This document shows positions 439-56,350 of a DNA stretch of 64,000 nt, one piece after another (position 1 is the stretch's first letter; every line of letters begins with the position of its first letter). The stretch is from an uncultured bacterium (lineage in GTDB: Bacteria; Patescibacteriota; Minisyncoccia; Phycocordibacterales; UBA9973). The position numbers were made by a program, and so were the translations under genes. The stretch lies in the NCBI GenBank assembly GCA_903838985.1, contig CAIMAO010000002.1:1844-65843 (forward strand), in the 5' to 3' direction. The notes under the pieces are model-generated. The model had not been told where the DNA came from. It saw only the letters and a list, made by a program, of their open reading frames with translations, and did no database searches.

Positions 439-523
439 AACTTTTTTGCCGGTACGGATTTTTTGAAGCTTAAAAAATCCTGAAATTCTCGCGCCGTCGC
501 GCTCGAAACCCCTTAAAAAGTTA
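439..523. repeat. ~85 bp intergenic repeat element, copy 1 (second copy at 1861..1944), nested in a locus-specific inverted repeat
   Basis: Near-identical to 1861..1944 apart from a one-T indel. Contains the hairpin ggattttttgaagcttaaaaaatcc and the GC-rich gcgccgtcgcgc segment. Flanked by the inverted pair agagaataacttttt / aaaaagttactctct. Confidence 0.85.
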
Positions 524-579
524 CTCTCTTTTTTATTTAGAAATTTTGATTTTTAAGCTTTTTCGTATAGAATGAAGAG

Positions 580-18445: not shown

Positions 18446-19318
18446 CTATTTTTTGTGAATATTTATGTTTTTAGAAATATTTATCCAATCTATAAGCGAA
18501 AGTTCCTCTGCTCTTTTGTTTCCTAATGTTTTTATAAGATTTTCATCTATGTAATTTGAGTTTTTAATTAGATTTTTTAGGTTTGAAGAGAGTTTTTTAC
18601 GTTTATGAGCAAAACCAGCACGGACCACTTCCCAAAAAAAGTCTTCATTTGCGTTGTTTTCTATGAAAGTTCTCCTAGAAATATTTTTTATTGCAATTAC
18701 TGCTGAATCTACAGCCGGTTCTGGTGAAAAATATCGTGATGGCACTTTTGTTATTAGTTTTGGTTCCCCATAGGCTTTTATTGAGATTGAAAGAATACTC
18801 TCCTTCCCATTACGTGCCACTATTCTTTTGGCTACTTCGTGTTGCACCATTAGAATCATCATTTCTGGCTGATTTTTTTCTGTTAAAAACTTTTTAAAAA
18901 TTGCACCAGTAATGTTGTATGGAATGTTTGCAATTATTTTATAATCAAAATCTGGATAGCCCTTTCTATTTTGAGCTTCCCGAGGGTCCCACCCGGTAAT
19001 CCGAGAAGGGCGCAGGGACGAAAAATTGGAAGAGATATCCAGATTTAAAATATCTTCTTCAAGCAAAATTAATTTTTTTTCAGTAATTTCTTTTGCAAAT
19101 TTTTCTTGAAGGAACTGAAATAAATTTTTATCTTTTTCAATCGCTATTATACAATTACTTTTTTCTAAAAGTTTTTCTGTTAATGCTCCCTTTCCTGGAC
19201 CAATTTCTAAAATAATATCGTCGGGTGATATTTCTCCGGCTTCAACAATTTTTTTAATCACTAAGTTTGATTTTAAAAAATTTTGGCCCAATGATTTTTT
19301 TGCTTTATGTATTTGCAT
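18446..19318 (-). CDS. rsmA: 16S rRNA (adenine1518-N6/adenine1519-N6)-dimethyltransferase RsmA/KsgA
   Basis: 290 aa. SAM-binding motif ILEIGPGKGALT, and IANIPYNIT matching the KsgA NxPY catalytic motif. The ORF stays intact across an inserted GC-rich element. Confidence 0.85.
   Translation of the reverse strand: MQIHKAKKSLGQNFLKSNLVIKKIVEAGEISPDDIILEIGPGKGALTEKLLEKSNCIIAIEKDKNLFQFLQEKFAKEITEKKLILLEEDILNLDISSNFSSLRPSRITGWDPREAQNRKGYPDFDYKIIANIPYNITGAIFKKFLTEKNQPEMMILMVQHEVAKRIVARNGKESILSISIKAYGEPKLITKVPSRYFSPEPAVDSAVIAIKNISRRTFIENNANEDFFWEVVRAGFAHKRKKLSSNLKNLIKNSNYIDENLIKTLGNKRAEELSLIDWINISKNINIHKK
18975..19025. repeat. GC-rich palindromic element (family 1) inserted in-frame within rsmA
   Basis: Core cccgagggtcccacccggtaatccgagaagggcgcagggacg is the reverse complement of the cores at 29448..29489 and 56287..56330. 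In the minus-strand reading frame it encodes ...SLRPSRITGWDPRE... Confidence 0.8.
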
Positions 19319-19322
19319 TTTT

Positions 19323-21455
19323 TTAAATATAAATTGTTTTTATTCCACCCTTCTCTCCTTCCTTTTCTATTATATCAACTGGTATGTCTCCAATGAAATC
19401 AGATAGTGCATTTATCTGTCGTGAGCCAAAGATGGTGCGGAAATTTGCAAAAGATAAAAATAATTTTTCTTTTGCGCGAGTGAGCGCAACGTAAAAAAGT
19501 CTTCGTTCTTCTTCTTTGTCTTCACCACTTTTTGCTTCATTTGATTTTTGATGAGGAAAGAGTCCATCTTCGAGTCCTGTGATAAAAACGTATTTAAATT
19601 CCAGACCTTTTGAAGCGTGAACTGTCATAAGCTTTACAGCATTTGTTTCATTTTTTTTATTTTCTGTAATCATTATTGAATCTTGGTCTGAAGCGAGTGA
19701 TGCATCTTCTAAAAGTTTTTCTATGCCCATTCCATTTTCCAAATTGTCATATTTTAAGGCCAAAGTTGCCAATTCCTTAATGTTTTCAAGCCTTTCTAGG
19801 TCTTCTTCCCCACCAGACAAAAGCTCTGTTTCTATGCCAGATTTTTTAACTGTAAATTTTATTACTTCAGACGCTTTTCCATTTTCTATTTTTTCTTTTA
19901 TTTCTTCTAACGTTTTATAAAAATTATCAACTTTGATTCTTACTTTTATTGGTAGACTTTCTTTTTCACCAGCAAAAATTTTTACAAGGGTCACTTTTCC
20001 TATTCCCCTTGTGGGGAAATTTATTATTCTTTTTATATCAGAAAGACTTTCAGGATTAAGTGCAGCACGAAGATACGCGAGTGTATCTTTTATTTCTTTT
20101 CTTTCAAAAAATTTTACACCAAGCACTTGATATGGGATGTTATATCTTAACATTGCTTCTTCTAACGCACGAGATTGAAAATTTGCTCGATACAAAATTG
20201 CTATGTCAGACAAAATATTTTTGGGTTCTTTTGCAAAACTAGTGATGCTTTTTCGAGCTGGTCTGGTTGAGCCCTTCGGACTTAATGAGGGCGACCCGAG
20301 GACCCGAGAAAAAGCATCGCTAGCTTTGCTATCTTGAAGCTCTAAAATTTTTATTGCGACGAAATCTGCTTCATCTCCCTCATCTAGCGCCTCATAGAAA
20401 CCGATTTTCTCCCCTACTCCATTTTTAGTAAACAAATTTTTATCTGGCCTATATTTGTTTTTCTTTATTATTTCATTTGCTGCCTCTAATATGTTTTGTG
20501 TTGATCTATAATTTTCTTCAAGTAAAACTATTTTTGCATTTGGGTAATCTTTTTCAAAACTTAAAATATTTTTTAAGTTTGCCCCACGCCAAGAATATAT
20601 ATTTTGATCCGCATCACCCACGACACAGATATTTTTATTTTTTTCAGAAAGCAAACGTGACATTAAATATTGTACTTCGTTCGTATCCTGATACTCATCA
20701 ATATGAATATATTGCCATTTATCTTGATACATTTCTCTTATTTCCTTGTTTTCCTTTAATAGTTTTGTTGCTTTTAAAAGTAAGTCGTCAAAATCTAATG
20801 AATTTTCTTTCATTTTTTTCTTTTCATAAATACTCCAAACTTGAGCCACTATTTTATTTAGATAGTTTCCACTACCACTTGGGCCATTGGCAATCTCTTC
20901 ATAATCTGCAAGATGTGTAAATTTACCTTTTTCTCGGCTGATTATATTTTTTATTTTTTTAGGATCATACTGTTTTGGGTCAACTCCTATTTCTTTTAAA
21001 GCTTCTTTTATAAGGGTTGTAGAGTCTGACTCATCTAAAATAGTGAAATGTCTAGTCAAACCCAATATTCTCGCATTTTCCTTTATAATATATACTCCCA
21101 ACGAGTGAAAAGTGCTAACAAACGGATGGCTGTTTACTTCGTTGGTAATGCTTTTTTGAATGGTCTGGCCGGGATAGGGACCCGGAGAACCGAGGACCTG
21201 AGAAAAAGCATTACCAACGAAGTTTACTTTTATTGCTTCCCTAATCCTCTCTTGCATTTCCTTTGCTGCTTTGTTTGTGAAAGTCACAGCTAAAATTTTC
21301 TCTGGAGCGACGCCATTTTTTATTAAATTTAGTATTCTATGTGTGATTGTTTTGGTCTTTCCTGCTCCAGCTCCTGCAACGATAAGAAGCGGCCCTTCCA
21401 TATGAATAGCCGCTTCTCTCTGTTTTTCATTTAGTCCTGACAGATGGTCTTCCAT
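19323..21455 (-). CDS. pcrA: ATP-dependent DNA helicase PcrA/UvrD (superfamily 1)
   Basis: 710 aa. Walker A AGAGAGKTKT. UvrD-family helicase motifs throughout. Carries two in-frame GC-rich element insertions. Confidence 0.9.
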   Translation of the reverse strand: MEDHLSGLNEKQREAAIHMEGPLLIVAGAGAGKTKTITHRILNLIKNGVAPEKILAVTFTNKAAKEMQERIREAIKVNFVGNAFSQVLGSPGPYPGQTIQKSITNEVNSHPFVSTFHSLGVYIIKENARILGLTRHFTILDESDSTTLIKEALKEIGVDPKQYDPKKIKNIISREKGKFTHLADYEEIANGPSGSGNYLNKIVAQVWSIYEKKKMKENSLDFDDLLLKATKLLKENKEIREMYQDKWQYIHIDEYQDTNEVQYLMSRLLSEKNKNICVVGDADQNIYSWRGANLKNILSFEKDYPNAKIVLLEENYRSTQNILEAANEIIKKNKYRPDKNLFTKNGVGEKIGFYEALDEGDEADFVAIKILELQDSKASDAFSRVLGSPSLSPKGSTRPARKSITSFAKEPKNILSDIAILYRANFQSRALEEAMLRYNIPYQVLGVKFFERKEIKDTLAYLRAALNPESLSDIKRIINFPTRGIGKVTLVKIFAGEKESLPIKVRIKVDNFYKTLEEIKEKIENGKASEVIKFTVKKSGIETELLSGGEEDLERLENIKELATLALKYDNLENGMGIEKLLEDASLASDQDSIMITENKKNETNAVKLMTVHASKGLEFKYVFITGLEDGLFPHQKSNEAKSGEDKEEERRLFYVALTRAKEKLFLSFANFRTIFGSRQINALSDFIGDIPVDIIEKEGEKGGIKTIYI
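20233..20329. repeat. GC-rich palindromic element (family 3), copy in pcrA, flanked by a 22-bp locus-specific inverted repeat
   Basis: Flanks gcaaaactagtgatgctttttc / gaaaaagcatcgctagctttgc. Core ggtctggttgagccc...gggcgacccgaggaccc. Encodes ...FSRVLGSPSLSPKGSTRPARKSITSF... in frame. Confidence 0.8.
21137..21222. repeat. GC-rich palindromic element (family 3), second copy in pcrA
   Basis: Flanks cttcgttggtaatgctttttt / gaaaaagcattaccaacgaag. Core gaatggtctggccgggatagggacccggagaaccgaggacctga. Encodes FVGNAF-SQVLGSPGPYPGQTIQ-KSITNE in frame. Confidence 0.8.
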
Positions 21456-28351: not shown

Positions 28352-29422
28352 TTGTCTGGGGCGTTTTTTGCGCCTCTGACCACCAACGCTAGTTTCTTGT
28401 CTTCTATCCTAGGGACGGATGCATCGGCAAGTAATGTCGACTCTCTAAACTCTACTCAATCTCTTAAAAACTCTCAAAACATGGCACTCCTGCAAGCAGA
28501 CGTTTCCCCTATTTCTGCCTCAGATGATAAAAGTAAAGATGGTGATGTTAGTGATGATTCCGACATTAATATTTTATCTGAAAACGCTCTTCTCCCTTCT
28601 ACTAGTCATAAGAGTGTTGGAGATGATACTGATGCTGGAGACTCCTATTCTGATCAAATAAGTGTTTATGTGATAAGAAAAGGCGACTCCATTACACAAA
28701 TAGCTGATATGTTTGGTGTTTCTACAAAAACAATTCTAGCAGCTAACAATATGAAAAAGGGTGACAAGCTTGTAGAGGGCAATGTGCTCTTTATTTTGCC
28801 TGTTTCTGGTCTAGAACATACCATAACCAAAGGACAAACCTTGAAAAGTATAGCTAAAATATACAAAATAGATGCCATAGATATAGCTCAATTTAACGGC
28901 ATTACTGAAGATACAAAGCTTGTTGTTGGAGATAAAATATTGATTCCAGGTGCTGATATGATAGATGAAGGTGGTGATAAACCAGCTTCAAACTTAAGTA
29001 GTGCTGCGGCTAAAGATAAAAACTATTACGATACACACAAAGTTAGAAGTCTCTCTGGTTACTTTATAAATCCAGTTCCTACTGGTCGCAAGACTCAAGG
29101 TTTGCATGGTCCAGGACATCGTGGTATAGATATCGGAGCACCGACAGGCACACCTATTTATGCTTCTGCTGGTGGAACGGTTATTCTTGCAAACACAGGC
29201 TGGAGTGGAGGTTATGGAAATATGGCTATAATCCAGCACGCAAATGGTACAAAGACACTCTATGGTCATATGTCTAAACTTGCTACATACACAGGAGATA
29301 CTGTTAAACAAGGTGAAGTAATAGGTTATGTGGGTTCTACAGGCCATTCCACCGGGCCACACTTACACTTTGAAGTATTCAATGCTAAAAACCCAGGCTC
29401 TGATTGGTCTTGGGCAAACTAA
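28352..29422 (+). CDS. LysM-domain M23 family metallopeptidase (peptidoglycan endopeptidase)
   Basis: Two LysM repeats (YVIRKGDSITQIADMFGVS..., HTITKGQTLKSIAKIYKID...). M23 motifs HRGIDIGAPTGTPIYA and GHSTGPHLHFEV. Confidence 0.85.
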   Translation: MSGAFFAPLTTNASFLSSILGTDASASNVDSLNSTQSLKNSQNMALLQADVSPISASDDKSKDGDVSDDSDINILSENALLPSTSHKSVGDDTDAGDSYSDQISVYVIRKGDSITQIADMFGVSTKTILAANNMKKGDKLVEGNVLFILPVSGLEHTITKGQTLKSIAKIYKIDAIDIAQFNGITEDTKLVVGDKILIPGADMIDEGGDKPASNLSSAAAKDKNYYDTHKVRSLSGYFINPVPTGRKTQGLHGPGHRGIDIGAPTGTPIYASAGGTVILANTGWSGGYGNMAIIQHANGTKTLYGHMSKLATYTGDTVKQGEVIGYVGSTGHSTGPHLHFEVFNAKNPGSDWSWAN

Positions 29423-29429
29423 AAAAACA

Positions 29430-29508
29430 AAAAGCACAAAATTTTTCGTCCTGCGCCCTTCCCGGATTACCGGGTGGGACCCTCGGACAGAAAAAATTTT
29501 GTGCTTTT
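29430..29508. repeat. GC-rich palindromic element (family 1) nested in an 18-bp inverted repeat; probable terminator hairpin after the M23 peptidase gene
   Basis: Flanks aaaagcacaaaatttttc / gaaaaaattttgtgctttt. Core gtcctgcgcccttcccggattaccgggtgggaccctcggaca. Confidence 0.8.
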
Positions 29509-29708
29509 TGTTTATAATTTTCTCCTAAAAACTAGAGCTTAGTTAAATAAAAGAGAGCACGACCTTGACTTATGTCTATCAAGGAAAGGAGAGAGATTTG
29601 TACTCTCTCCTATTTATACCAAGAATAACTCTTGATAATTTTTAAGCTCTAGTTTTTAAAAGAAAATAATTTCTCGCAATAGCCCAACAAAATTAATTTT
29701 GTTGGGCT

Positions 29709-29773: not shown

Positions 29774-29990
29774 TTTCTCAGCGTGGAGGCTCTGCTTCCT
29801 CTTGGCTCACCATTTTAAAGAAAATGGTGACAAACTTTTTACCCGTCCTTTTATTCCTATGGATTTTTAGGAAACATTTTTCACCAGATGTGAAAAATGA
29901 ATGTACTGTTGCGGTGTTCCGCTTTTGTCTGGAGAGGTAAACAGTTTTACCTCGAGGTTTTACACCCAGACTGCACCCATCTCTCCTTAA

Positions 29991-30323
29991 TTACCCTAAG
30001 GTAACTAAGAGCCACTTGATAGTGGCACCTTCTGGTAAGGTCGAACAACCTTCCGGAAGGCGAGGCCCGACATACTGGCCTACAAGAGCTTTGTCATCTT
30101 TTTTAAGGACGACATTTACTCTGTTTGCCGGCACGTCTACTCCCAAGACATTACTGAACACATTAGCTGTGTCAGCATGTCCGACTGCTGACATAGCGTC
30201 AGTAGCGAGAGTCTTAGCCTGCTCTAAAGAGATTTCCTCAACATGAATATCTATCGGAAAGACAGAAATCATATTGAGGGAGATCGCGTTCAAAATAAAC
30301 ATGAACGTTTTCTCCTCTAGCAA
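29991..30323 (-). CDS. Hypothetical protein in GC-rich cassette 1 (110 aa)
   Basis: ORF with ~45% GC against a ~33% background. ...ISLEQAKTLATDAMSAVGHADTANVFSNVLGVDVPANRVNVVLKKDDKALVGQYVGPRLPEG... It may resemble the DUF1874/STIV-B116-like family, but this is unverified. Confidence 0.5.
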   Translation of the reverse strand: MLEEKTFMFILNAISLNMISVFPIDIHVEEISLEQAKTLATDAMSAVGHADTANVFSNVLGVDVPANRVNVVLKKDDKALVGQYVGPRLPEGCSTLPEGATIKWLLVTLG

Positions 30324-30484
30324 CTACTATCTCCTCAACTTCCTCGCAGTCACACTACGATTTATATGAGTATTTAAGTTACTAGCTCTGTTGATTTTAA
30401 AGGTTGATCAACTAACCGCTTCCAACTCACTTGAGTCAGAAGTATATCCCGCAGAAACCACTGCGTTGCTAGGGTTTTTAATTT

Positions 30485-30856
30485 TTAGTCTGTGTAACGA
30501 TTAATTCTGATCATTACATCATCTGGCATATCAGCCAGTTTAATTTCCGCGCGGAATCCCCTTGGGTCGCTATAAAAGGAAGATAAAATAATTTTTTCCC
30601 CTAAAGAATATAAAATTAAATATTCTTTATTTTCCAACACCTGAGATTCTACTTTTCCTCCTTCTCCCGTATAAAAAAAAGAGAAATCTTTGCAATACTT
30701 TATTTGTATTGTAAACATAGTATCTAATTCCCACATTTTTTTTTCATGGAATTCTTTCCATGAAATATCCAAAGGGAGGTTTTTAAAACCAAGACCAAAT
30801 CTTTTCAGATTTGTCTCGAAATCGAAAGCATCCATTAATTTTTGGAATATACTCAT
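30485..30856 (-). CDS. Hypothetical protein in cassette 1 (123 aa)
   Basis: ORF preceded (on the minus strand) by a strong SD ggtgaggagg and by the shared leader repeat. Confidence 0.45.
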   Translation of the reverse strand: MSIFQKLMDAFDFETNLKRFGLGFKNLPLDISWKEFHEKKMWELDTMFTIQIKYCKDFSFFYTGEGGKVESQVLENKEYLILYSLGEKIILSSFYSDPRGFRAEIKLADMPDDVMIRINRYTD

Positions 30857-30900
30857 TTTTTCCTCCTCACCATTTTACGTCCGTGAGGTAGACATTTGTT

Positions 30901-31010
30901 TTTTATGATTAGTCAGTTGTTTAAAAGTAGTTAAATAACCACACTTAAACAACTAACCAACCACAAGTAAAAAATGAAATTTACTCTCTTCTATTTAATT
31001 TTCAAAAAAC
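30901..31010 (-). promoter_or_regulatory. Shared ~110-bp 5' leader/promoter repeat, copy 1 (upstream of 30485..30856)
   Basis: About 85% identical to 34631..34746 (ttttatgat...gtttaaaagtagttaRaataaccacRcttaaacaactaaccaac...aatgaaRttt..ctct.ttc.atttaattttcaaaaaac). Both copies sit 27–44 bp upstream of a minus-strand start codon with a GGAGG-type SD. Confidence 0.6.
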
Positions 31011-31056
31011 TCGCAATGAATTTTCCATTTAATTAACCCAATCAAATGAAAAACTC

Positions 31057-31121
31057 AACAACGAGGTCAAACAGATTTTATTTGTTTGACCAGTATTTAT
31101 GTTAACCCTAACCCGTTGTGC
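31057..31121. repeat. 65-bp structured direct repeat, copy 2 (3' of cassette 2)
   Basis: Identical to 29709..29773. Confidence 0.85.
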
Positions 31122-31467
31122 CTTACGGCAGATGAGGACACAAAATTTTTATTGTAATTTTATGTTTATCCTCACGCCAAATAAATTTGACTTCCTCTTT
31201 GTTTTATCGGTAGGCATCCGACTAGTTATAAGGTCACAATCCACTTATGTAAACTCTCGGTCTACTTCTGCTAAAAGCCTAACACTCACACCTTGTCACC
31301 AACCGTATGGTATTGTGAGATGGTACATTTGTGTATTTTATGTCTATAATGTTTTCCTTACGGACGAAAAAGAATTATAGACCACGTGCACAACCAGAGA
31401 CCTCCTTATTTTTTTGATAATAATTCAATTATGGGTCTGGTAGCCCAAAAATTGTCGTTAATTAATT

Positions 31468-32841
31468 TTAGAGTTTGTTTACACCAACTCCGCCCGTACT
31501 GATCGCAAGATCAGTCAGAACTTTATTTGTACACTCAACTACAAAGGCATGCATTTTTGTACCTGTAAAATCCTTCATAGTTAAGTTTATTTTATCGTCC
31601 CCATCAGTAATAATAACGAGCTCGGGACGATAGGTGGAACCTGCTTTTATTATTTCTTCGATCCTTTGTTGCGCCAGCTTCGCGCATCCCGAGATATCTG
31701 TACTTCCACCTGAATAGTTTTTCTCGGTAAAGTGCTTGATTAACTCCTTAGCTTCAGTTGGGGTAGAGGAGTGATGTTCCTCCTTCAATGTAGTATCGAA
31801 GAGCCTTACATAAAGCTCAGCCTCTCCCTCAATCACCGCTTTTAAACGATTTATGAGGATTCCACCAGCCTTAAATATTCTCTGGCCAGATCCCATTGAT
31901 CCGGAGCAGTCTATAATAATATAAAGGAGCTGCTTCTTTTCAATGGTCGTCACTCTCTCTCTTACCATACTAGAATGAGTGACAATTCTGTATGTCCGAT
32001 AAGTGCTCGGTAGCGCCCATTCGGATTTTATCAACTTATTCATTTCGCCCGTGTGCGCTATTGGGCGGTTCCGGACACTATCACCGGCCGGATCCGGTTC
32101 TTGTTTTTTACTCTTACGCACTTGCATGCGCGTAAGTTTATCTAGATTTCTTGAAATCTGGAGCATAATCTCCTTACCTTTCAAAAAATCTTCCGCAAGT
32201 TTCATTTTTTGGAGACCGTCATCTCCTTTTCCTTCACTCGCTCCCGAACCAGTGTCCTGGTCAGGATCAAGCAGTTGTTTTTCATCTTTGGATAAAGAAT
32301 CAACTTCATCCATAAGATTATTCAGCTGCTCGCCGACTTTTTCTGACTGATCATTGTCGGTAAATATTGGTAACGGCTCTCCGGCCTCTCCACCACCTTG
32401 TCCACCTTGCTTTTTTGACAAAAGTTTCAGTAGACTCATGGCTTGTTCAAGTGGAGAACTACCAGGGAAACAATTAAGATCAATTGTCTGCAAAAAATCG
32501 CAAACGTTTTGATGATACCTCATCTGTTCCCGAGTTCTACCTTCGATTGCTTCAAACCGACTCTTGGTTGATACTTCAGTCTTTGATTTTTTATCGCGAC
32601 GGAGGTATTTCCAATTACCGGAAGTGTCGGCAGCAGGTAAAGTTTCCTCAACATTTTTCCTTACAACTTGTTGATAGGATGATGGAGGATTTACCTGACC
32701 GCCAGCAGCCAAATTACATAAGTCCGCGACTAAGTCCCTTGAAAAGGATTTAACGCCAACCTTATCTCCAACTTCCCGCATTTCTTCCGCACTAGGCGAA
32801 AGATAAGTTACGGGAGGAGAAGTTCGAAATGTAAATTGCAT
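31468..32841 (-). CDS. VWA-domain protein, CoxE-like (von Willebrand factor A with MIDAS motif)
   Basis: 457 aa. C-terminal VWA with ...LLYIIIDCSGSMGSGQ... (DxSxS MIDAS) and ...VIITDGDD.... The N-terminal ~250 aa is charged/low complexity, as in CoxE-family partners of MoxR ATPases. GC-rich. Confidence 0.75.
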   Translation of the reverse strand: MQFTFRTSPPVTYLSPSAEEMREVGDKVGVKSFSRDLVADLCNLAAGGQVNPPSSYQQVVRKNVEETLPAADTSGNWKYLRRDKKSKTEVSTKSRFEAIEGRTREQMRYHQNVCDFLQTIDLNCFPGSSPLEQAMSLLKLLSKKQGGQGGGEAGEPLPIFTDNDQSEKVGEQLNNLMDEVDSLSKDEKQLLDPDQDTGSGASEGKGDDGLQKMKLAEDFLKGKEIMLQISRNLDKLTRMQVRKSKKQEPDPAGDSVRNRPIAHTGEMNKLIKSEWALPSTYRTYRIVTHSSMVRERVTTIEKKQLLYIIIDCSGSMGSGQRIFKAGGILINRLKAVIEGEAELYVRLFDTTLKEEHHSSTPTEAKELIKHFTEKNYSGGSTDISGCAKLAQQRIEEIIKAGSTYRPELVIITDGDDKINLTMKDFTGTKMHAFVVECTNKVLTDLAISTGGVGVNKL

Positions 32842-32864
32842 GTGTTTTCTCCTTCTCGCGATTT

Positions 32865-33938
32865 TTATATGCGGGTATTTTCAAGTGCCAGTTTTTGAGT
32901 CTCGGAGGTTTTCTCCGAAACTGTGTCTCTTAATTTTTTACGACGGTCAGACAAACCGTCGGTTACTTTTAGTGATGAAATTTCATCATTAAGAGCTACT
33001 AATTTTTTTGCCACTTGTAATAATTTGATTGGAGATGTTGCGTTTACTCTTGACTCATTTAATAACTCGCCGAATTTTGTCTCGGCAAGAGAAAGATTTT
33101 TTTCAGCAGCAGCTCTCTCCATCGCAGTCTCAAGGTCTTTGCTGATTGTTTCTGCAAGACCTTCAAGTCCAGGCAGAAACCGTAAATCAGTAAGGTCCTG
33201 TTTCTCTACTTTTTCACCACCACGCAGTGTAGCGGCAGTTTGACAGATCTGAAAGGAATGGACTGCTGTACGAGGGCTCACAAAATTGCCCTCAGCAGTT
33301 GCTTTTGCTAAAATCTCTGCGAGAACGGCCTTAAAGCCGTTAAGAATCGGACCGTTTAACCGACCGGCGACTTTTTCAAACATCTTCAAATAAGAGGACG
33401 CTGAATAATCTTTCCATTTCAAGTTTAATTGAAGCGGAAAGCGCTCAATAAGAGCATGTGCCGCTGGGCCTAAACCAGAAATTTCCTGAGGTTCTTTATT
33501 TGTTAAGCAAATTATTAGCTCGGTTCTCATTTTAAATCTCTGCGAACCGTTTCTTAATTCCTTAGCAGTCAAAACGTCTTTTAGAGCTAGAAGCACCGAC
33601 GCCGGAGCATCAAATAATTCTTCGAATACTGCTATCCGAGAATTTAAAAAAGATTTCTCTGGATAGTATTCAAGAATTTTATCTTCCTCTAATTTTTTGA
33701 AGTTCAATCCTCCGAAGAGACGGCTTTCATCCATCCCTTCACCAAAAAATTGGTAGAAGGTATCAGAATCGAGATTCAAACCATCAATAACTGCCTTTGT
33801 CATCTCAGATTTGGCGTGTCCGCCCGGTCCGAAGATGATAATGTTTTTTTTACTTGTGAAAGCAAGTGCAAAAATACGCACTACCTCGTCGACAAACACA
33901 AACGAGGTTTCAAGAATATTTTTAATTTTCTCTAACAT
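32865..33938 (-). CDS. MoxR-like AAA+ ATPase (CoxD-like)
   Basis: 357 aa. Walker A IIIFGPGGHAKSE. Divergent Walker B and sensor region ...IAVFEELFDAPASVLLALKDVLTAKE.... ...ELIICLTNKEPQE...ALIERF..., aligning with the MoxR ...LATQNP...LDRF... region. Adjacent to the VWA gene. Confidence 0.75.
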   Translation of the reverse strand: MLEKIKNILETSFVFVDEVVRIFALAFTSKKNIIIFGPGGHAKSEMTKAVIDGLNLDSDTFYQFFGEGMDESRLFGGLNFKKLEEDKILEYYPEKSFLNSRIAVFEELFDAPASVLLALKDVLTAKELRNGSQRFKMRTELIICLTNKEPQEISGLGPAAHALIERFPLQLNLKWKDYSASSYLKMFEKVAGRLNGPILNGFKAVLAEILAKATAEGNFVSPRTAVHSFQICQTAATLRGGEKVEKQDLTDLRFLPGLEGLAETISKDLETAMERAAAEKNLSLAETKFGELLNESRVNATSPIKLLQVAKKLVALNDEISSLKVTDGLSDRRKKLRDTVSEKTSETQKLALENTRI

Positions 33939-34135
33939 TTTTACTCCTGCCCATTTAACGCCGGGACCAGCAATTGATTTGAGTTTGAGCGCTTTATTTC
34001 CGCTTCATTAAGGGCGGCAATAAACCTGGCACTCCTCGCTGTCTTGTTGGTAGCGAATAACCCAGGAGTCATGTGTGCTTACTCACACATGTCCTGAAAA
34101 TGATTTTCATTTTTGTGTTGAGTAAGCAACATTTT

Positions 34136-34603
34136 TTACCAGGGACAAGTCTCAGTTTCGGTGCCTGGTATCACCGGTTCGCTACCCCAAATGAGTGCGT
34201 GTTCACTCCAAAACTTTCTGGAGTTTTGGGTAGCTTTCCGATCCCAGGGCTCTGGTTCAGCCAATTCGCCAATGAAGGCGGTAACCAAAATAAAAGTCCC
34301 GGGCTGTTCATCAGCAGTCTTCAGAATGACTACCACCGACGAGCTTGGTTCGGGTTGGCGATTTTTAACAAATCGCGTTAATCCAAACCGTTTGGGCCGT
34401 TGTGCAAATACAATTACATCGTCAGGCCCAGTGACGACACAAGTTGATTCACCTATGATTCGGTCAAACCTGACTTCCTCAACGATGAAAGTTCTTCCTT
34501 TTGAATTAATTTTTTCTAGCGCCTCGGGAAGAACGTCGAGGACACTAGCATGAAGATGTGATTGATAACGATCAACCACATCTTCACCACTTTTTAGCTT
34601 CAT
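34136..34603 (-). CDS. Hypothetical protein, first gene of the MoxR-VWA cassette (155 aa)
   Basis: GC-rich ORF with SD aaggaga. Preceded by leader repeat copy 2. No family recognised. Confidence 0.5.
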   Translation of the reverse strand: MKLKSGEDVVDRYQSHLHASVLDVLPEALEKINSKGRTFIVEEVRFDRIIGESTCVVTGPDDVIVFAQRPKRFGLTRFVKNRQPEPSSSVVVILKTADEQPGTFILVTAFIGELAEPEPWDRKATQNSRKFWSEHALIWGSEPVIPGTETETCPW

Positions 34604-34630
34604 TTTTCTCCTTTCTCCACTTCTGTGGAG

Positions 34631-34746
34631 TTTTATGATGAAAGTTGGTTAGTTATTTAAAAGTAGTTAGAATAACCACGCTTAAACAACTAACCAACTA
34701 TATTATTTGGAAATAATGAATTTTTTCTATTCAATTTTCAAAAAAC
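34631..34746 (-). promoter_or_regulatory. Shared 5' leader/promoter repeat, copy 2 (upstream of 34136..34603)
   Basis: See 30901..31010. Confidence 0.6.
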
Positions 34747-35349
34747 ATATCCTTACTACAAAACAGGCCTCTCTCCTTTTTGTACTTTCATTGTTTTCTC
34801 CTTTTAAAACAATGAACTCCTTCGTAAAGACATTTCAGATCACAAAAGTGGGTTAAGCTCTTATGGTCTGCCTATGTCTTTGCCATTCTTTATTACCCTG
34901 TACTAAGTTTTTAATTTAGTAGTGGTGAATGACTCTTACACGGTTGTGAATTTATCTGTGTTTTTGGTTTCGGTTTGCGGCTTTCACCAAAATCCACAAT
35001 TCACGGTGCAAACAGATTTCAAAAGATTGTCTCTCATCCCACTCCCTCCTTTTTCCTAGCTTACCGGCCTAGGTGCCGCCTCATCGATTATTCAGGATTT
35101 ACCCTGAGCGTAGTCGAAGGGTCAGAGGTGGGTATCAATCTTCTGCTATCTCCTTTAATGAACCTTGCCCGTTCTCTCTTGAGGCGGGTCTTAACTTATC
35201 TGCAAATAGTATAGCATAATAGAAATGTTTTGTCAATGAAACAGAAAAGAAAGTTTGTAAAGGCTAAAAAAGCCTTATTTATCAATATAAAATAGTTATC
35301 CACTTTGTCATATTTGTGTGGCAAAAGCATTCATGTTAAGATTGTTAAT

Positions 35350-36117
35350 ATGAATGAAGAAAACATTTTAATCCAAGCGGGTCTTTCAGAGGAGCAATCC
35401 TTGGCTTATCAATCTTTATTGGATAAAGGGCCTCAAAGGGCTAGTGATCTTGCAAAATGGACTGGGATAAAACGTGGGCTTATCTATAAAGTATTAGAAC
35501 AATTAGAATCTATGGGTTTGGTGTCTAAAAATGGTGGTGTGGGAACTGTGGCCATCTTCTCCCCCGCCCATCCTAGTCTTTTACTTTCAAATATAGAACG
35601 TAAGGAAAAAGAGATTGCTTTGACTAAAGAAATGCTTGTAAGCTCCATTGGTTCTTTGTCTTCAAAATTTAATTTGATTACTGGCAAACCCAATGTGCAG
35701 TTTTTTGAAGGAGAAGAAGGAGTTAAGAAAGTATTAGATGATACATTAAATGTTCCTAAGTATACAGAGATATACACTTATGCTGATCTTGAAGCTATTT
35801 TGAAATATATTCCAAATATAAACCAGGTGTATTCAGATCGTAGAGAAAAATTAGGCATAAAGAAAAAAGGGCTACTTTTAGATAGTCCTAAGGTGCGTGA
35901 ATTGATAAAAAGCTATCACACCGAGACTACGGATACAAAATTGATACAATATAATGTTTCAGAATTTGAAACGATAATGCAGATTTATGAGAATAAGATT
36001 TCTTATATAACTCTGAAAGAAAACTCGATGATTGGAGTAATTATTGAAGACCCATTTATTTATAAGATGCACAAAAATATTTTTGAGCATCTTTGGAATA
36101 TTACTCCTTCTCTTTAA
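35350..36117 (+). CDS. TrmB-family transcriptional regulator
   Basis: ORF 35305..36117. The likely start is MNEENIL at 35350. N-terminal winged HTH ...LSEEQSLAYQSLLDKGPQRASDLAKWTGIKRGLIYKVLEQLESMGLV... is typical of TrmB. Confidence 0.6.
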   Translation: MNEENILIQAGLSEEQSLAYQSLLDKGPQRASDLAKWTGIKRGLIYKVLEQLESMGLVSKNGGVGTVAIFSPAHPSLLLSNIERKEKEIALTKEMLVSSIGSLSSKFNLITGKPNVQFFEGEEGVKKVLDDTLNVPKYTEIYTYADLEAILKYIPNINQVYSDRREKLGIKKKGLLLDSPKVRELIKSYHTETTDTKLIQYNVSEFETIMQIYENKISYITLKENSMIGVIIEDPFIYKMHKNIFEHLWNITPSL

Positions 36118-39874: not shown

Positions 39875-39945
39875 TGCGGGATGGGAGAATCGAACTCCCA
39901 ACCACAGTTTGGAAAACTGTTATTTTACCATTAAACTAATCCCGC
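39875..39945 (-). tRNA. tRNA-Gly (anticodon UCC)
   Basis: Cloverleaf on minus strand: acceptor gcgggat/atcccgc, anticodon stem acagt/actgt with loop tttccaa, T-arm gggag-ttcgatt-ctccc. Confidence 0.8.
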
Positions 39946-39965
39946 TTAATTTAAATATCGAAGGG

Positions 39966-40036
39966 TCGGGCTGCTGGGAATCGAACCCAGTCTAAACGCT
40001 CCCAAAGCGCTTGTACTACCGGTATACTACAGCCCG
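39966..40036 (-). tRNA. tRNA-Pro (anticodon UGG)
   Basis: Acceptor cgggctg/cagcccg, anticodon loop tttggga, T-arm ctggg-ttcgatt-cccag. Confidence 0.8.
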
Positions 40037-40073
40037 TTAAATTTATTAAATTATAAAATATCTTTACCGACTA

Positions 40074-40128
40074 AAGTCTAAACGCTCTCACCATGAAGGC
40101 GCTTGTACTACCGGTATACTACAGCCCG
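40074..40128 (-). pseudogene. Truncated duplicate of tRNA-Pro (5' half through anticodon stem; no T-arm)
   Basis: Matches the tRNA-Pro 5' half exactly (cgggctgtagtataccggtagtacaagcgc). The anticodon loop is replaced by cttcatggtga and there is no T-arm or acceptor 3' strand. Confidence 0.55.
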
Positions 40129-40154
40129 AAACATATTTGAACTTCATAAGTATA

Positions 40155-40565
40155 TTACAAAATAAGATCTTCCACAACTTTTATTTTTGCTTTCTTGTTT
40201 TTTATATCTAAAAACACAACCAATAAATCGACTTGCCATTCTTTATCCTCAGGGACGTTTTTATTTAAAAGATAGGTTTGTATTGTCCGTGACATTCTTT
40301 TCATTTTCCAAGGATGCATATTATCTTCAGGTTTGTAATTATCTAGGGTTTCATGTGTAACGTTAGCTAAAGTTTCACGAGAAACACTCTTAACTTCAAT
40401 AAAATATAGCTTATTTCCCTTTTCAGCTACAATATCTAGTTCTCCCCATTTTCTAGTGTAATTTCGTTCTATAATAACGAAATTGTGTTTCACGAGAAAC
40501 TTTATGGCTATATTTTCCCCAATTTCCCCTATTTTTTGTGTTTCTGAGGTAAAAACCTTAGGCAT
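40155..40565 (-). CDS. yraN: YraN-family (UPF0102) predicted endonuclease
   Basis: 136 aa. ...GEIGENIAIKFL...IIERNYTRKWGELDIVA...YFIEVKS... matches the YraN pattern. Confidence 0.7.
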   Translation of the reverse strand: MPKVFTSETQKIGEIGENIAIKFLVKHNFVIIERNYTRKWGELDIVAEKGNKLYFIEVKSVSRETLANVTHETLDNYKPEDNMHPWKMKRMSRTIQTYLLNKNVPEDKEWQVDLLVVFLDIKNKKAKIKVVEDLIL

Positions 40566-40593
40566 AATCTATGTTTTTGTTTATTTTGTAAAT

Positions 40594-40623
40594 GTTTCAT
40601 AAGAAACGTGTTTCACGTGAAAC
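40594..40623. promoter_or_regulatory. Tandem palindromes gtttcataagaaac / gtttcacgtgaaac upstream of yraN (candidate operator)
   Basis: Three further copies of gtttcacgagaaac lie at 40372, 40487 and 41352. The function is unknown. Confidence 0.3.
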
Positions 40624-40836
40624 AAATAGCTTAATTTTATGTCTTTTATTAAAATATCCTTATTTTACAACGTATTTTATATAAAAATGGCCTTAAAGAC
40701 AAAATTTTATTGTGTCCTTTATAAACATTACCAACATAGTTATCCACATTTATCCACAAAATCCTTATAAATAAAGATGAAATTAAAAACAAATAAAGGA
40801 CAATTATAGTTTTGTCTTAGATCTTTCTTTTTTGTG

Positions 40837-40908
40837 TGCACCCGGAGGGATTCGAACCCCCAACAACTGCTTCGAAGGCAGGTATGATATCCATTTCACT
40901 ACGGGTGC
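40837..40908 (-). tRNA. tRNA-Arg (anticodon UCG)
   Basis: Acceptor gcacccg/cgggtgc, anticodon loop cttcgaa (the stem has one C·U mismatch), T-arm ggggg-ttcgaat-ccctc. Confidence 0.7.
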
Positions 40909-41022
40909 AAGGATATTAATTATACTCCTATAAATACTAATTATCAAAATTGCAATATTTTTTATAAAATACTATAATTGAAATGTTATCGGCAATTAGG
41001 TCATTTTTATAAAAATAATACT

Positions 41023-41093
41023 GCGGTTATGGTTTAGTGGTAGAACACGTCCTTGCCAAGGATGAGACGGGAGTTCGATTCTCCCTAGCCGCA
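41023..41093 (+). tRNA. tRNA-Gly (anticodon GCC)
   Basis: gcggttatggtttagtggtagaacacgtccttgccaaggatgagacgggagttcgattctccctagccgca. Anticodon loop ttgccaa. Confidence 0.85.
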
Positions 41094-41100
41094 CAGAATA

Positions 41101-48679: not shown

Positions 48680-48790
48680 AAACTTGTGAAACTAATGTTT
48701 TTTCACCACGAAAATCTTTTGCTAAAGATTTTCTCTGTCCGTCGCCGTCGCTCCTACCAAGGGTTCAAAAACATTAGTTTCACAAGTTTA
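48680..48790. repeat. Perfect 23-bp inverted repeats (aaacttgtgaaactaatgttttt / aaaaacattagtttcacaagttt) enclosing a 65-bp segment, between xerC stop and xth start
   Basis: The enclosed segment carries an AT hairpin (gaaaatcttttgctaaagattttc) plus gtccgtcgccgtcgctcc, the same architecture as the yidD/jag repeat. It overlaps the xerC stop codon and is likely a terminator or MITE-like element. Confidence 0.75.
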
Positions 48791-50717: not shown

Positions 50718-50795
50718 GTTTTCTTGTAAAAAATTTTTGAAACTGCGCCCTCGGAGTCATAAAGACAGGGGACCCACACGTTTCTTAAATTTTTT
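50718..50795. repeat. GC-rich palindromic element (family 2) within a locus-specific hairpin, between NYN gene and pnp
   Basis: Core ctgcgccctcggagtcataaagacaggggacccaca, similar to 54318..54358. Flanks aaaaatttttgaaa / tttcttaaatttttt. Confidence 0.75.
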
Positions 50796-54298: not shown

Positions 54299-54378
54299 CA
54301 CAAAACTTAAAATTTTTGCGCCTTCGCCCTCGGAGTCAGAAGGACAGGGGACCCACGACGCTAAAAATCTTAAGTTTT
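54299..54378. repeat. GC-rich palindromic element (family 2) within a 17-bp inverted repeat, downstream of dksA
   Basis: Flanks caaaacttaaaattttt / aaaaatcttaagttttg. Core gcgccttcgccctcggagtcagaaggacaggggacccacgacgc. Confidence 0.75.
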
Positions 54379-56269: not shown

Positions 56270-56350
56270 ATTTCTTTAAATTTTTTGTCCCTGCGTCCTT
56301 CTCGGAATACCGAGTGGGACCCTCGGGAAGCAAAAAATTCAAAGAAATTA
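56270..56350. repeat. GC-rich palindromic element (family 1) upstream of lexA
   Basis: Core gtccctgcgtccttctcggaataccgagtgggaccctcggga. Flanks ctttaaattttttg / caaaaaattcaaag. Confidence 0.8.

What the first reader, a model, noticed from the sequence alone, without database searches (positions are those of the whole stretch)
18975..19025. Family-1 GC-rich palindrome inside rsmA, with intergenic copies downstream of the M23 peptidase and upstream of lexA
- A ~42-bp core (gtccctgcgcccttctcggattaccgggtgggaccctcggg) occurs three times: in-frame in rsmA (encoding SLRPSRITGWDPRE), at 29448..29489 and at 56287..56330.
- The two intergenic copies sit in the loops of long locus-specific hairpins that look like terminators.
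- The same element is therefore used both as an intergenic hairpin and as a coding insertion.
Basis: seen in the sequence. Interest (0 to 1): 0.6.

Follow-up and report, generated by a model that had tools for sequence, protein, structure and literature searches.

The report
Selfish GC-rich hairpin repeats invading genes
The segment inside rsmA is one copy of a small GC-rich hairpin-forming DNA repeat that is scattered through the AT-rich genomes of one group of ultra-small (CPR) bacteria, about two thirds of the copies sitting in-frame inside housekeeping genes, much like the palindromic elements of Rickettsia.

Summary
Three copies of a 35-nt GC-rich core lie in this 33% GC window: in-frame in rsmA, just after the M23 peptidase stop codon, and 33 nt before a LexA-like gene. 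The same core occurs at 76 loci in 47 species-level MAGs, all labelled CPR (Nomurabacteria/Paceibacterota) apart from evident mislabels. Of 77 copies, 49 lie inside long ORFs, in both orientations and five of six frames, so conservation is at DNA level, not peptide level. Host genes include UvrD, UvrC, RecG, LigA, PolA, Dus, MnmA, Tgt, TruB and LeuRS. The RsmA loop is empty in 21 of 120 orthologues and holds at least seven other insert families elsewhere. The core is a rod: invariant boxes (TGCGCCCTTC / GTGGGACCCTC) flank helices that covary strongly. It sits between T- and A-runs and 20-30-nt inverted arms whose distal parts are locus-specific, in the rsmA copy too. At three loci the same arms carry different or flipped cores. 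I read it as an RPE/REP/MITE-like selfish palindromic element, translated through in permissive loops, with cores copied into persistent hairpin arms. The enzyme and the exact insertion chemistry remain unknown. I found no description of it in CPR bacteria.

The parts
18982..19016 (-). Family-1 core, copy 1, in frame inside rsmA. With its outer stem it encodes SSLRPSRITGWDPRE.
   Evidence: Covariance model hit at 18968-19027, 80.7 bits.
18948..19046 (-). Whole hairpin of copy 1: 30-nt 5' arm (19017-19046), core, 34-nt 3' arm (18948-18981). The 5' arm encodes the conserved N-L-D-I of RsmA. The 3' arm encodes G-Y-P-D-F and is its reverse complement.
   Evidence: The AlphaFold2 model gives pLDDT 52-57 over the insert, which lies between two beta-strands.
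18446..19318 (-). rsmA (16S rRNA dimethyladenosine transferase), 290 aa, host gene of copy 1.
   Evidence: Pfam RrnaAD, E = 3e-58. 120 homologues listed.
29450..29484 (+). Family-1 core, copy 2 (subfamily CGT-CC...GG-ACAGA).
   Evidence: Covariance model hit at 29439-29498, 83.6 bits.
29425..29513 (+). Whole hairpin of copy 2: arms AAACAAAAAGCACAAAATTTTTCGT / GGACAGAAAAAATTTTGTGCTTTTTGTTT. It starts 3 nt after the M23 peptidase stop codon (29420-29422) and is followed by T-rich sequence, a terminator-like position.
   Evidence: (-45.1 kcal/mol, z = -8.1). A positionally equivalent copy lies downstream of the M23 homologue in L035.
56290..56324 (+). Family-1 core, copy 3 (C-to-T in the 5' box; inner stem CTCGG/CCGAG).
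   Evidence: Covariance model hit at 56279-56338, 81.0 bits.
56270..56348 (+). Whole hairpin of copy 3: arms ATTTCTTTAAATTTTTTGTC / GGGAAGCAAAAAATTCAAAGAAAT. It ends 9 nt before the ATG of the LexA-like gene (56358).
   Evidence: (-35 kcal/mol, z = -6.1). An orthologous copy lies upstream of the LexA orthologue (85% identity) in L067, with a compensatory change in the arms.
54310..54370 (+). Related element ('family 3'). It shares the boxes (T)GCGCCCT and GGGACCC with family 1, has a different inner part, and has its own locus-specific arms. It is intergenic, between a DksA-like gene and a ComM/Mg-chelatase-like gene.
   Evidence: Covariance model hit at 28.2 bits, E = 9e-7.
50732..50792 (+). 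Second 'family 3' copy, intergenic, between a NYN-domain gene and pnp.
   Evidence: Covariance model hit at 23.4 bits, E = 6e-5.

Best explanation
The rsmA segment is a DNA-level insertion of a small non-coding palindromic repeat that is, or recently was, mobile. The family is specific to Nomurabacteria/Paceibacterota-type CPR bacteria. The unit is a GC-rich rod-shaped hairpin: two invariant boxes and a variable apical stem-loop, closed by a covarying 4-bp stem and by T- and A-runs. It sits at the centre of a 20-30-bp AT-rich inverted repeat. Copies survive where they do little harm: in surface loops of proteins, where the stop-free GC-rich core is simply translated, and at gene boundaries, where some probably double as terminators. 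Most likely mechanism (inferred, not shown): the core behaves as a cassette that is copied into the centre of existing palindromes. This would happen by break repair or gene conversion primed on the short palindromic T-run/outer-stem/A-run homology. That route would replace or flip an earlier core and keep cores nearly identical across copies and species. The arms are kept complementary by DNA-level templated (hairpin) correction, not by selection on RNA folding.
For: SHOWN
- Three copies in the window, none expected by chance.
- 76 further loci, all in CPR MAGs; no hit in viral contigs.
- 49 of 77 copies lie inside long ORFs, in both orientations and five reading frames, so the conserved object is DNA, not a peptide.
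- Host proteins are unrelated housekeeping enzymes.
- Presence/absence and family turnover at the same protein loops: the RsmA loop is empty in 21 of 120 orthologues and carries at least 7 families. UvrD has three hot spots.
- The structure is supported by covariation: 96.7% of cells paired against 81% in shuffles, 113 double-sided changes against 35, and 48 inner-hairpin variants with 191 of 202 Watson-Crick pairs.
- Arm complementarity is far above mismatched controls: score 11.2 against 2.5, arm length 25 against 8.6 nt.
- Two paralogues in one genome (L026 in Tgt, L029 in LeuRS) share an identical 75-nt unit but have different distal inverted repeats.
- Same arms, different or inverted cores: UvrD site 2 in L161 versus L162, genomes that are closely related (alignment); Dus in L003/L034 versus L031; NifS-like in L027 versus L030/L066.
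- Positionally conserved copies keep the boxes while the arms diverge: lexA-upstream in L067, M23-downstream in L035 where the M23 protein is only 49% identical.
- Distal arms show no G.T versus A.C asymmetry (11 against 15) and few wobble pairs, which points to a DNA-level palindrome.
- The RsmA insert lies in a low-confidence loop of an otherwise confident fold.

INFERRED
- The copy-in/gene-conversion route and the templated correction of the arms.
Against: - No enzyme has been identified. The ORFs I scanned in the window contain no transposase; only a XerC/D-like recombinase lies next to another element family.
- I have no unambiguous virgin-versus-filled pair for family 1 at nucleotide resolution.
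- Net insert sizes estimated from protein alignments differ between sites, about 48-60 nt at NifS site B and 69-81 nt elsewhere. So it is unclear how much of the arms arrives with the core.
- The best empty/filled pair (L159 versus L123, another family) may be a deletion footprint rather than a virgin site.
- About 20 copies carry a fixed AGC-TTC-GC motif on both sides, which could be a 3-9-bp target-site duplication of a classical transposition.
- Whether the inserts are present in mRNA and protein has not been observed.
Confidence: 0.55

Rival explanations
1. It is a classical non-autonomous transposon (MITE/REP type). A trans-acting transposase, for example a RAYT/IS200-IS605-like or DDE enzyme, recognises the conserved boxes or terminal inverted repeats and inserts a unit of about 78 nt with a short target-site duplication. 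Arm diversity reflects old, diverged subfamilies.
For: - Proximal arms act like terminal inverted repeats shared within subfamilies, and non-orthologous copies share up to 28-31 nt of arm.
- About 20 copies have (A)GC-TTC-GC at fixed distance on both sides in direct orientation.
- The net insert at NifS site A (L062) is 78 nt, equal to arm + core + arm.
- The 5' tags CGTC/TGTC/CCTC resemble CGTC-type REPs (PMC3733652).
- Conserved unpaired boxes between variable helices look like a protein-recognition surface.
Against: - The flanking motif has the same sequence at unrelated loci, and its two copies do not co-vary by locus as a fresh duplication would.
- It can equally be read as a helix with a 3x3 internal loop.
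- Distal arms are locus-specific yet complementary, and overlap ancestral coding positions.
- The same arms carry different or flipped cores.
- No transposase was found in the ORFs scanned.
Confidence: 0.3
2. The primary reason these sequences exist is a host function of the hairpin as RNA: an intrinsic terminator, an mRNA-stabilising 3' hairpin or a regulatory 5' structure. Coding copies would be by-products.
For: - Most intergenic copies abut the 3' ends of genes, several between convergent genes.
- 11 of 28 intergenic copies have a T-rich tail, against 7 of 49 coding copies.
- Positional conservation downstream of M23 and upstream of lexA across species.
- Strong covariation.
Against: - 64% of copies are inside ORFs in either orientation.
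- There is no excess of G.U-type pairs on either strand in the distal arms.
- No Rfam family matches.
- The invariant boxes are not needed for a terminator.
- The lexA-upstream copy is not in a terminator position.
Confidence: 0.1
3. The inserts are removed after transcription, or after translation in an intron- or intein-like way. The long arm helix would bring the flanks together for cleavage and ligation, so the host proteins are not really altered.
For: The arms form a long helix that juxtaposes the two flanks. CPR bacteria are known, from my own knowledge, for excised insertions in rRNA genes.
Against: - All 49 gene-internal copies keep the reading frame open on both sides.
- None of the 28 remaining copies clearly splits a gene.
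- That pattern is expected if the sequence is translated, and unnecessary if it were spliced out.
- No ribozyme or intron family matches.
Confidence: 0.04
4. The segment is a conserved protein motif (SLRPS...WDPRE) selected for a function in RsmA.
For: The peptide is retained in about 10 RsmA orthologues.
Against: - The same DNA is read in five different frames in other genes and also lies between genes.
- 21 orthologues lack any insert and others carry unrelated inserts at the same loop.
- The insert is modelled with low confidence outside the fold.
Confidence: 0.01

Closest known systems
Rickettsia palindromic elements (RPEs; Ogata et al. 2000/2002, as summarised in PMC10969869 and PMC3733652)
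   Same: - Dispersed palindromic repeats in a small AT-rich genome.
- Several coexisting families.
- A very high share inserted in-frame in unrelated housekeeping genes at surface-compatible sites, as well as in intergenic regions.
- No known transposase.
- Host genes overlap in kind: TruB in R. conorii (PMC3733652), and TruB, Dus, MnmA and Tgt here.
   Different: - A different phylum (CPR, not Alphaproteobacteria).
- The core is only 32-44 nt and the whole hairpin about 95-103 nt, against about 100-150 bp for RPEs.
- Strong GC-versus-AT contrast with the genome.
- Locus-specific distal arms.
- Cores swapped or flipped within the same arms.
- At least 7 families competing for one protein loop.
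- Sequence similarity to RPE families was not tested.
REP elements, in particular CGTC-tagged REPs (Di Nocera et al. 2013, PMC3733652)
   Same: - Short GC-rich stem-loops.
- 5' tags CGTC, TGTC or CCTC in 47 of 77 copies, counting both registers.
- No dedicated transposase known for CGTC REPs.
- Some REP families are found inside palindromic 'target' sequences.
- REPs are recurrently found inside uvrABCD, recBCD and polA genes; here the hosts include UvrD, UvrC, RecG, LigA and PolA.
   Different: - REPs are simple 8-9-bp stems with 4-5-nt loops and a CCA tail, and are mostly extragenic.
- This element is a multi-helix rod with invariant unpaired boxes.
- Its 'tag' is part of a covarying stem.
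- 64% of copies are intragenic.
Bacterial MITEs that double as terminators or fuse in-frame (Correia/NEMIS, ERIC, SPRITE; review PMC10969869)
   Same: Size class, terminal inverted repeats, hairpin-forming transcripts, occasional in-frame fusions, and terminator-like intergenic copies.
   Different: No cognate insertion sequence, no clear direct target duplication, and a far higher coding fraction. The arms are partly locus-specific.
Mobile GC clusters of yeast mitochondrial DNA (my own knowledge, not checked here)
   Same: 30-50-nt GC-rich palindromic clusters in an extremely AT-rich genome. They are flanked by AT-rich sequence, polymorphic between strains, found in intergenic DNA and also in-frame in a protein gene (var1), and their mechanism is unknown.
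   Different: An organellar eukaryotic system with no sequence relation. Locus-specific inverted arms are not, to my knowledge, a described feature.

Membership tests
Rickettsia palindromic elements (RPE) | Dispersed, repeated palindromic DNA element with several copies per genome | tested here: met
   Three copies in 64 kb. Up to 6 strict-core copies per MAG, in 47 MAGs.
Rickettsia palindromic elements (RPE) | Frequent in-frame insertion into unrelated protein-coding genes at positions compatible with the fold | tested here: met
   49 of 77 copies lie in ORFs that stay open. The RsmA insert is in a low-pLDDT loop between strands. Empty orthologues exist.
Rickettsia palindromic elements (RPE) | Sequence homology to RPE families 1-10, and occurrence in Rickettsia | not tested
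   No RPE sequences were available to compare. All hits are in CPR MAGs, so at best this is an analogue, not a member.
REP / CGTC-tagged REP | Single imperfect stem-loop of 20-40 nt (8-9-bp stem, 4-5-nt loop) | tested here: not met
   The structure has three helices separated by invariant unpaired boxes, and is 32-44 nt plus arms.
REP / CGTC-tagged REP | Terminal tetranucleotide CGTC (variants TGTC, CCTC) at one end | tested here: inconclusive
   CGTC lies directly 5' of the box in 24 of 77 copies. Counting variants and the other register gives 47 of 77. These bases covary with a 3' partner as a stem.
REP / CGTC-tagged REP | Predominantly extragenic location | tested here: not met
   64% of copies are intragenic.
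REP (GTAG type) / REPIN | Association with a RAYT (IS200/IS605-type Y1 transposase) gene flanked by the repeats | tested here: inconclusive
   None was found among 20 window ORFs scanned with Pfam. Whole genomes were not searched.
MITE | Terminal inverted repeats | tested here: met
   Proximal arms are shared within subfamilies, for example CTTCCAATTTTT / AAAATTGAAAG.
MITE | Direct target-site duplication of fixed length | tested here: inconclusive
   A fixed-position (A)GC-TTC-GC motif lies on both sides in about 20 copies. The sequence is the same at unrelated loci and can be read as a helix with an internal loop. It is absent from the long-arm copies.
MITE | Cognate autonomous element with the same ends | not tested
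   This needs complete genomes. The single scan of genome contigs was used for the census.
Intrinsic (rho-independent) terminator | GC-containing stem directly after a stop codon, followed by a U-run | tested here: inconclusive
   Copy 2 starts 3 nt after the M23 stop codon and has a T-rich tail, but the simple scan does not call the full hairpin. 11 of 28 intergenic copies have T-rich tails. Copy 3 is not in that position.
Known structured RNA families (Rfam 15) | Match to a curated covariance model | tested here: not met
   The window gives only 4 tRNAs at gathering threshold. Around copy 2 there are only weak generic hairpin hits.

The most novel reading that the evidence does not exclude
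These cores are a new kind of transposase-free mobile cassette that homes to the centre of palindromes. Hairpins or cruciforms extruded in AT-rich DNA would be cut at the tip and repaired by copying a GC-rich core from another copy, in either orientation, using only the short palindromic T-run/stem/A-run homology. The hairpin then palindromises its own flanks. Such structure-directed spread would explain four things: persistent arms with exchangeable cores, flip-flop orientation, near-invariant boxes across species, and recurrent hot spots where many families compete for one protein loop.
Probability: 0.25. Interest if true: 0.85.

Novelty: new variant of a known kind. Interest (0 to 1): 0.62.

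Why it matters
1. It extends the 'selfish DNA inside protein-coding genes' phenomenon, so far emblematic of Rickettsia, to the Candidate Phyla Radiation. The coding fraction is even higher, and several families compete for the same protein loops.
2. It has practical consequences. The elements lengthen and scramble loops of universal marker proteins (RsmA, UvrD, UvrC, PolA, LigA, LeuRS, tRNA-modification enzymes) used for CPR phylogeny, annotation and structure prediction. They can be masked with a simple covariance model.
3. Persistent arms with exchangeable or flipped cores, and locus-specific inverted flanks, are not explained by standard cut-and-paste models. They offer a tractable comparative system, with many MAGs and many orthologous sites, to study how palindromes are born, maintained and replaced in genomes with reduced repair capacity.
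4. The intergenic copies are candidate terminators or 5' regulatory hairpins in organisms where such signals are almost unknown.

Tried and rejected
- **Empty/filled pair L159 versus L123** (RsmA 93% identical outside the loop). At first this seemed to prove that the insertion brings the core plus an inverted copy of the 5' flank. I withdrew the inference. The same arm sequence (AAYATTCTC...GAGC) accompanies that family in UvrD, so L159 is probably a deletion footprint.
- **Direct repeat AGCTTCGC as a target-site duplication.** It sits at fixed position but has the same sequence at unrelated loci, and its two copies do not co-vary. Left unresolved.
- **Strand-specific wobble test for an RNA or single-strand structure.** An apparent A.C excess vanished once the subfamily-inherited proximal positions were removed.
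- **Snap-back synthesis adding one arm.** Insert lengths fit at UvrD site 1 (75 nt, roughly core plus one arm). They do not fit at NifS site B (48-60 nt) or UvrC (57-69 nt).
- **Rfam** gave no family. **Viral contigs** gave no copy.
- **Six literature searches** found nothing on such elements in CPR bacteria.
- **The metagenome scan with RsmA** returned mostly distant relatives; only about 8 close loci were useful.
- **Ogata 2002** (PMC186582) could not be read.

Full report
**1. The observation**

The window is AT-rich, 27-42% GC and mostly about 33%. It contains short islands of over 63% GC. Three of them share one core.

| Copy | Core coordinates | Strand | Context |
|---|---|---|---|
| 1 | 18982-19016 | - | inside the 290-aa rsmA ORF 18446-19318 |
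| 2 | 29450-29484 | + | starts just after the M23 peptidase stop codon |
| 3 | 56290-56324 | + | ends 33 nt before the LexA-like start codon |

These are read directly.

- A 40-nt pattern with up to 3 mismatches is expected 0 times in shuffled sequence.
- A covariance model built later scores the three copies at 81-84 bits.
- The rsmA copy is in frame and reads SSLRPSRITGWDPRE.
- Pfam confirms RrnaAD, Peptidase_M23 plus LysM, and a Peptidase_S24 (LexA-like) protein.

**2. Anatomy**

Aligning 77 copies gives this layout:

arm - T(4-6) - NN(N)CC - TGCGCCCTT - C[variable hairpin]G - TGGGACCCTC - GGNN(N) - A(4-6) - arm'

- The two boxes are invariant.
- The apical hairpin has 48 different sequences, yet 191 of 202 of its pairs are Watson-Crick. 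Examples are CCGGATTACCGG, CCCTGAGTACAGGG, TCCTTCGGA, and 22-nt versions.
- The outer stem covaries: GTCC/GGAC, CTCC/GGAG, GCCC/GGGC.
- On a 53-sequence alignment, 96.7% of cells are paired against 81% in shuffles. There are 113 cells with changes on both sides against 35 expected, and sliding the partners destroys the signal.
- Seventy-two and 73 of the 77 copies have the T-run and the A-run respectively.

Beyond these lie inverted arms.

- Their complementarity score is 11.2, with mean arm length 25 nt. Pairing the left flank of one locus with the right flank of another gives 2.5 and 8.6 nt.
- The rsmA copy also has arms of 30/34 nt.
- The proximal 8-12 nt of the arms are shared within subfamilies, for example CTTCCAATTTTTCGTC...GGGAAGCTCAAAATTGAAAG. 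The distal part is locus-specific.
- Two paralogues in one MAG, L026 in Tgt and L029 in LeuRS, share an identical 75-nt unit. Each has its own 6-7-nt distal inverted repeat beyond a 3-4-nt unpaired spacer.

**3. Distribution**

One scan of 185,579 species genomes found 76 loci in 47 assemblies. All are CPR MAGs labelled Nomurabacteria, Paceibacterota or Patescibacteria, apart from a few evident mislabels. There are up to six strict copies per MAG.

- Viral contigs gave no hit.
- In 333 kb of CPR loci chosen for RsmA rather than for the element, the model found two further copies, both in UvrD.
- Scores are bimodal: about 42-85 bits for family 1, and 21-31 bits for relatives such as 'family 3' in the window. 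The boxes are therefore truly conserved and not an artefact of the search pattern.

**4. Coding copies**

Forty-nine of 77 copies lie in long ORFs that stay open on both sides, 36 in sense and 13 in antisense orientation. Five of the six frames are used. The peptides are SLRPS..WDPRE, SCALP..GGTLG, APAPF..VGPSG, PRGSH.EGEGRRG and PEGPT..RAQG. Conservation is therefore at nucleotide level.

Host genes:

- **DNA repair and replication:** UvrD, UvrC, RecG, LigA, PolA.
- **tRNA and rRNA modification:** Dus, MnmA, Tgt, TruB, an RluA-type pseudouridine synthase, RsmA.
- **Other:** Fmt, LeuRS, a NifS-like enzyme, PGK, a GlcD-like oxidase.

For RsmA, 120 homologues range from 249 to 353 aa. The loop between DIL.F and YKIIANIPYNI is short (12 aa or less) in 21 of them. 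Ten carry family 1. The others carry at least six further insert types, and one has two inserts in tandem. An AlphaFold2 model places the window's insert between two beta-strands, with pLDDT 52-57 against 85-95 for the fold.

UvrD has three such hot spots. The window's own UvrD carries two copies of another family ('family 2'), each with perfect or near-perfect locus-specific arms inside the coding sequence.

**5. Intergenic copies**

Most abut gene 3' ends, several between convergent genes. Eleven of 28 have T-rich tails, against 7 of 49 coding copies.

- Copy 2 fits a terminator position.
- Copy 3 does not. It ends 9 nt before the LexA-like ATG.
- Both positions recur in other species. L067 has a copy upstream of a LexA that is 85% identical, with a compensatory G..C to A..T change in the arms. 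L035 has a copy downstream of an M23 protein only 49% identical, with different arms.

**6. What the arms tell us**

*(a) Persistent arms, exchangeable cores.*

- At UvrD site 2, two closely related genomes (L161 and L162, aligned) have the same arms, GAGAGAATGTT/AACATTCTCTC, around different GC cores.
- In Dus, L003/L034 and L031 share arms in gene sense. Their cores have opposite orientation and different apical hairpins.
- In the NifS-like gene, L027 and L030/L066 share arms around flipped cores.

*(b) Arms co-evolve.* Orthologous copies in MnmA (L008, L046, L078) have diverged distal arms, each still self-complementary.

*(c) The complementarity is a DNA-level property.* In distal arms G.T and A.C mismatches are equally rare, 11 against 15 of 817 pairs. 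This is unlike RNA stems, where G.U is tolerated.

*(d) Part of the arms overlaps ancestral coding positions.* Net insert size varies by site.

| Site | Net insert |
|---|---|
| NifS site B | about 48-60 nt |
| UvrC | 57-69 nt |
| UvrD site 1 | 75 nt |
| NifS site A | 78 nt |
| RsmA | 69-81 nt |

The whole hairpin is about 95-103 nt. In RsmA the 5' arm encodes the conserved N-[LF]-x-[IV], and the 3' arm is its complement. An orthologue with NFKI on the left has KIFKN on the right.

**7. Interpretation**

The 'what' is secure. This is a dispersed, structured, GC-rich palindromic DNA repeat of a CPR lineage. It is inserted at DNA level and read through in permissive protein loops.

The 'how' is inferred. 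I favour a cassette model. Cores are copied into the centres of existing AT-rich palindromes by break repair or gene conversion. The priming homology would be the short symmetric T-run/stem/A-run. This explains:

- exchangeable and flipped cores,
- near-invariant boxes even at anciently shared positions,
- hot spots, because a loop that has once acquired a palindrome becomes a target for every family.

The arms would be kept complementary by templated hairpin correction.

The main rival is classical mobilisation by an unidentified transposase. Supporting it are subfamily-specific terminal repeats, a 78-nt insert that equals arm + core + arm at one site, and a fixed flanking (A)GC-TTC-GC motif. 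That motif has the same sequence at unrelated loci and can also be read as a helix with a 3x3 internal loop.

Other readings are poorly supported:

- a primary RNA function,
- RNA- or protein-level excision,
- a selected peptide motif.

**8. Comparison with known systems**

The closest analogues are Rickettsia palindromic elements and CGTC-tagged REPs (PMC10969869, PMC3733652).

*Shared features*
- In-frame insertion in housekeeping genes, notably repair and tRNA-modification genes.
- Several coexisting families.
- No dedicated transposase known.
- CGTC/TGTC/CCTC-like 5' tags.
- For some REP families, location inside palindromic targets.

*Differences*
- The phylum.
- The multi-helix rod with unpaired invariant boxes.
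- A 64% coding fraction.
- Partly locus-specific arms.
- Core swapping and flipping.

No paper retrieved in six full-text searches describes such elements in CPR bacteria. I class the finding as a new variant of a known kind.

**9. Limits**

- No enzyme was identified.
- There is no nucleotide-resolution virgin site for family 1.
- Expression of the inserts has not been observed.
- Insert sizes rest on protein alignments of variable loops, with an uncertainty of about 3 aa.
- MAG labels are taken as deposited.

Noticed in passing
window 21136-21223 (-), 20233-20329 (-), 41994-42100 (+): Three copies of another GC-rich hairpin family ('family 2': TTTTTCTCRGGTCCTCGG-variable hairpin-CCAGACCA...AAAAA). 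Two lie in-frame in uvrD/pcrA (19323-21455) and one in the CCA-adding enzyme gene (41037-42698). Each has 16-17-nt locus-specific inverted arms, and the copy at 21136-21223 has a perfect 22-nt inverted repeat inside coding sequence. The same family occurs in reverse orientation in the RsmA loop of L079.
   Followed up: partly
window 48690-48779 (-): A copy of 'family X' (GAACCCTTGGTAGGAGCGACGGCGACGGACAGAGAAAAT...TTTTCGTGGTGA), with 13-nt perfect arms AACTAATGTTTTT/AAAAACATTAGTT. It lies between an exo/endonuclease-phosphatase gene and a XerC/D-like tyrosine recombinase gene (48788-49705). The same family, as the peptide ERTLGRSDGDGQRKFSAENFRGES, fills the RsmA loop and UvrD site 2 in many relatives.
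   Followed up: partly
window 440-525 and 1860-1945: Two nearly identical ~80-85-nt stretches about 1.4 kb apart bracket two small ORFs (580-1317, 1330-1848). The repeat is (A)CTTTTTTGCCGGTACGGATTTTTTGAAGCTTAAAAAATCCTGAAATTCTCGCGCCGTCGCGCTCGAAACCCCTTAAAAAGTTA. Each contains an AT hairpin plus a small GC hairpin. Their function is unknown.
   Followed up: no
window ~29990-36100: A block of higher GC (38-42%) holds a STIV B116-like protein, a MoxR-type AAA ATPase with a vWA protein, and a TrmB-type regulator. It may be a horizontally acquired island. No hairpin elements were seen inside it.
   Followed up: no
L161 vs L162 (UvrD site 2, UvrD site 3, RsmA loop): Two closely related genomes (aligned) differ at three element sites within 2.4 kb. 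One site has the same arms with a different core, one has a 30-nt GC-rich insert present or absent before VKLMTVHA, and one has the RsmA loop filled or short. This shows rapid turnover.
   Followed up: partly
L101 (RsmA loop): A more distant CPR RsmA carries a different GC-cored hairpin with 25-nt perfect arms (AAAAAACGGTGTCAGGAACCGTTTG...). Its left arm plus core start is duplicated in tandem. The phenomenon therefore extends beyond the Nomurabacteria-like clade.
   Followed up: no
about 20 family-1 loci, e.g. L006, L019, L036, L077: The motif (A)GC-TTC-GC(T) occurs at fixed distance on both sides of the element (-25 and +22 from the core) in direct orientation. It could be a target-site duplication with a strong target preference, or a distal helix with a conserved 3x3 internal loop. 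This is unresolved.
   Followed up: partly
window 39875-41093: A cluster of four tRNA genes (Rfam) sits next to a YraN/UPF0102 nuclease-like gene and the CCA-adding enzyme gene.
   Followed up: no
L159 (RsmA loop of P0012): An apparently empty RsmA loop retains AATATTCCCGAGC. That is the left arm plus the first bases of family X, so it looks like a footprint of element loss rather than a virgin site. Some 'empty' orthologues (QNVLRNYK, QNILHNYK) may be footprints too.
   Followed up: partly
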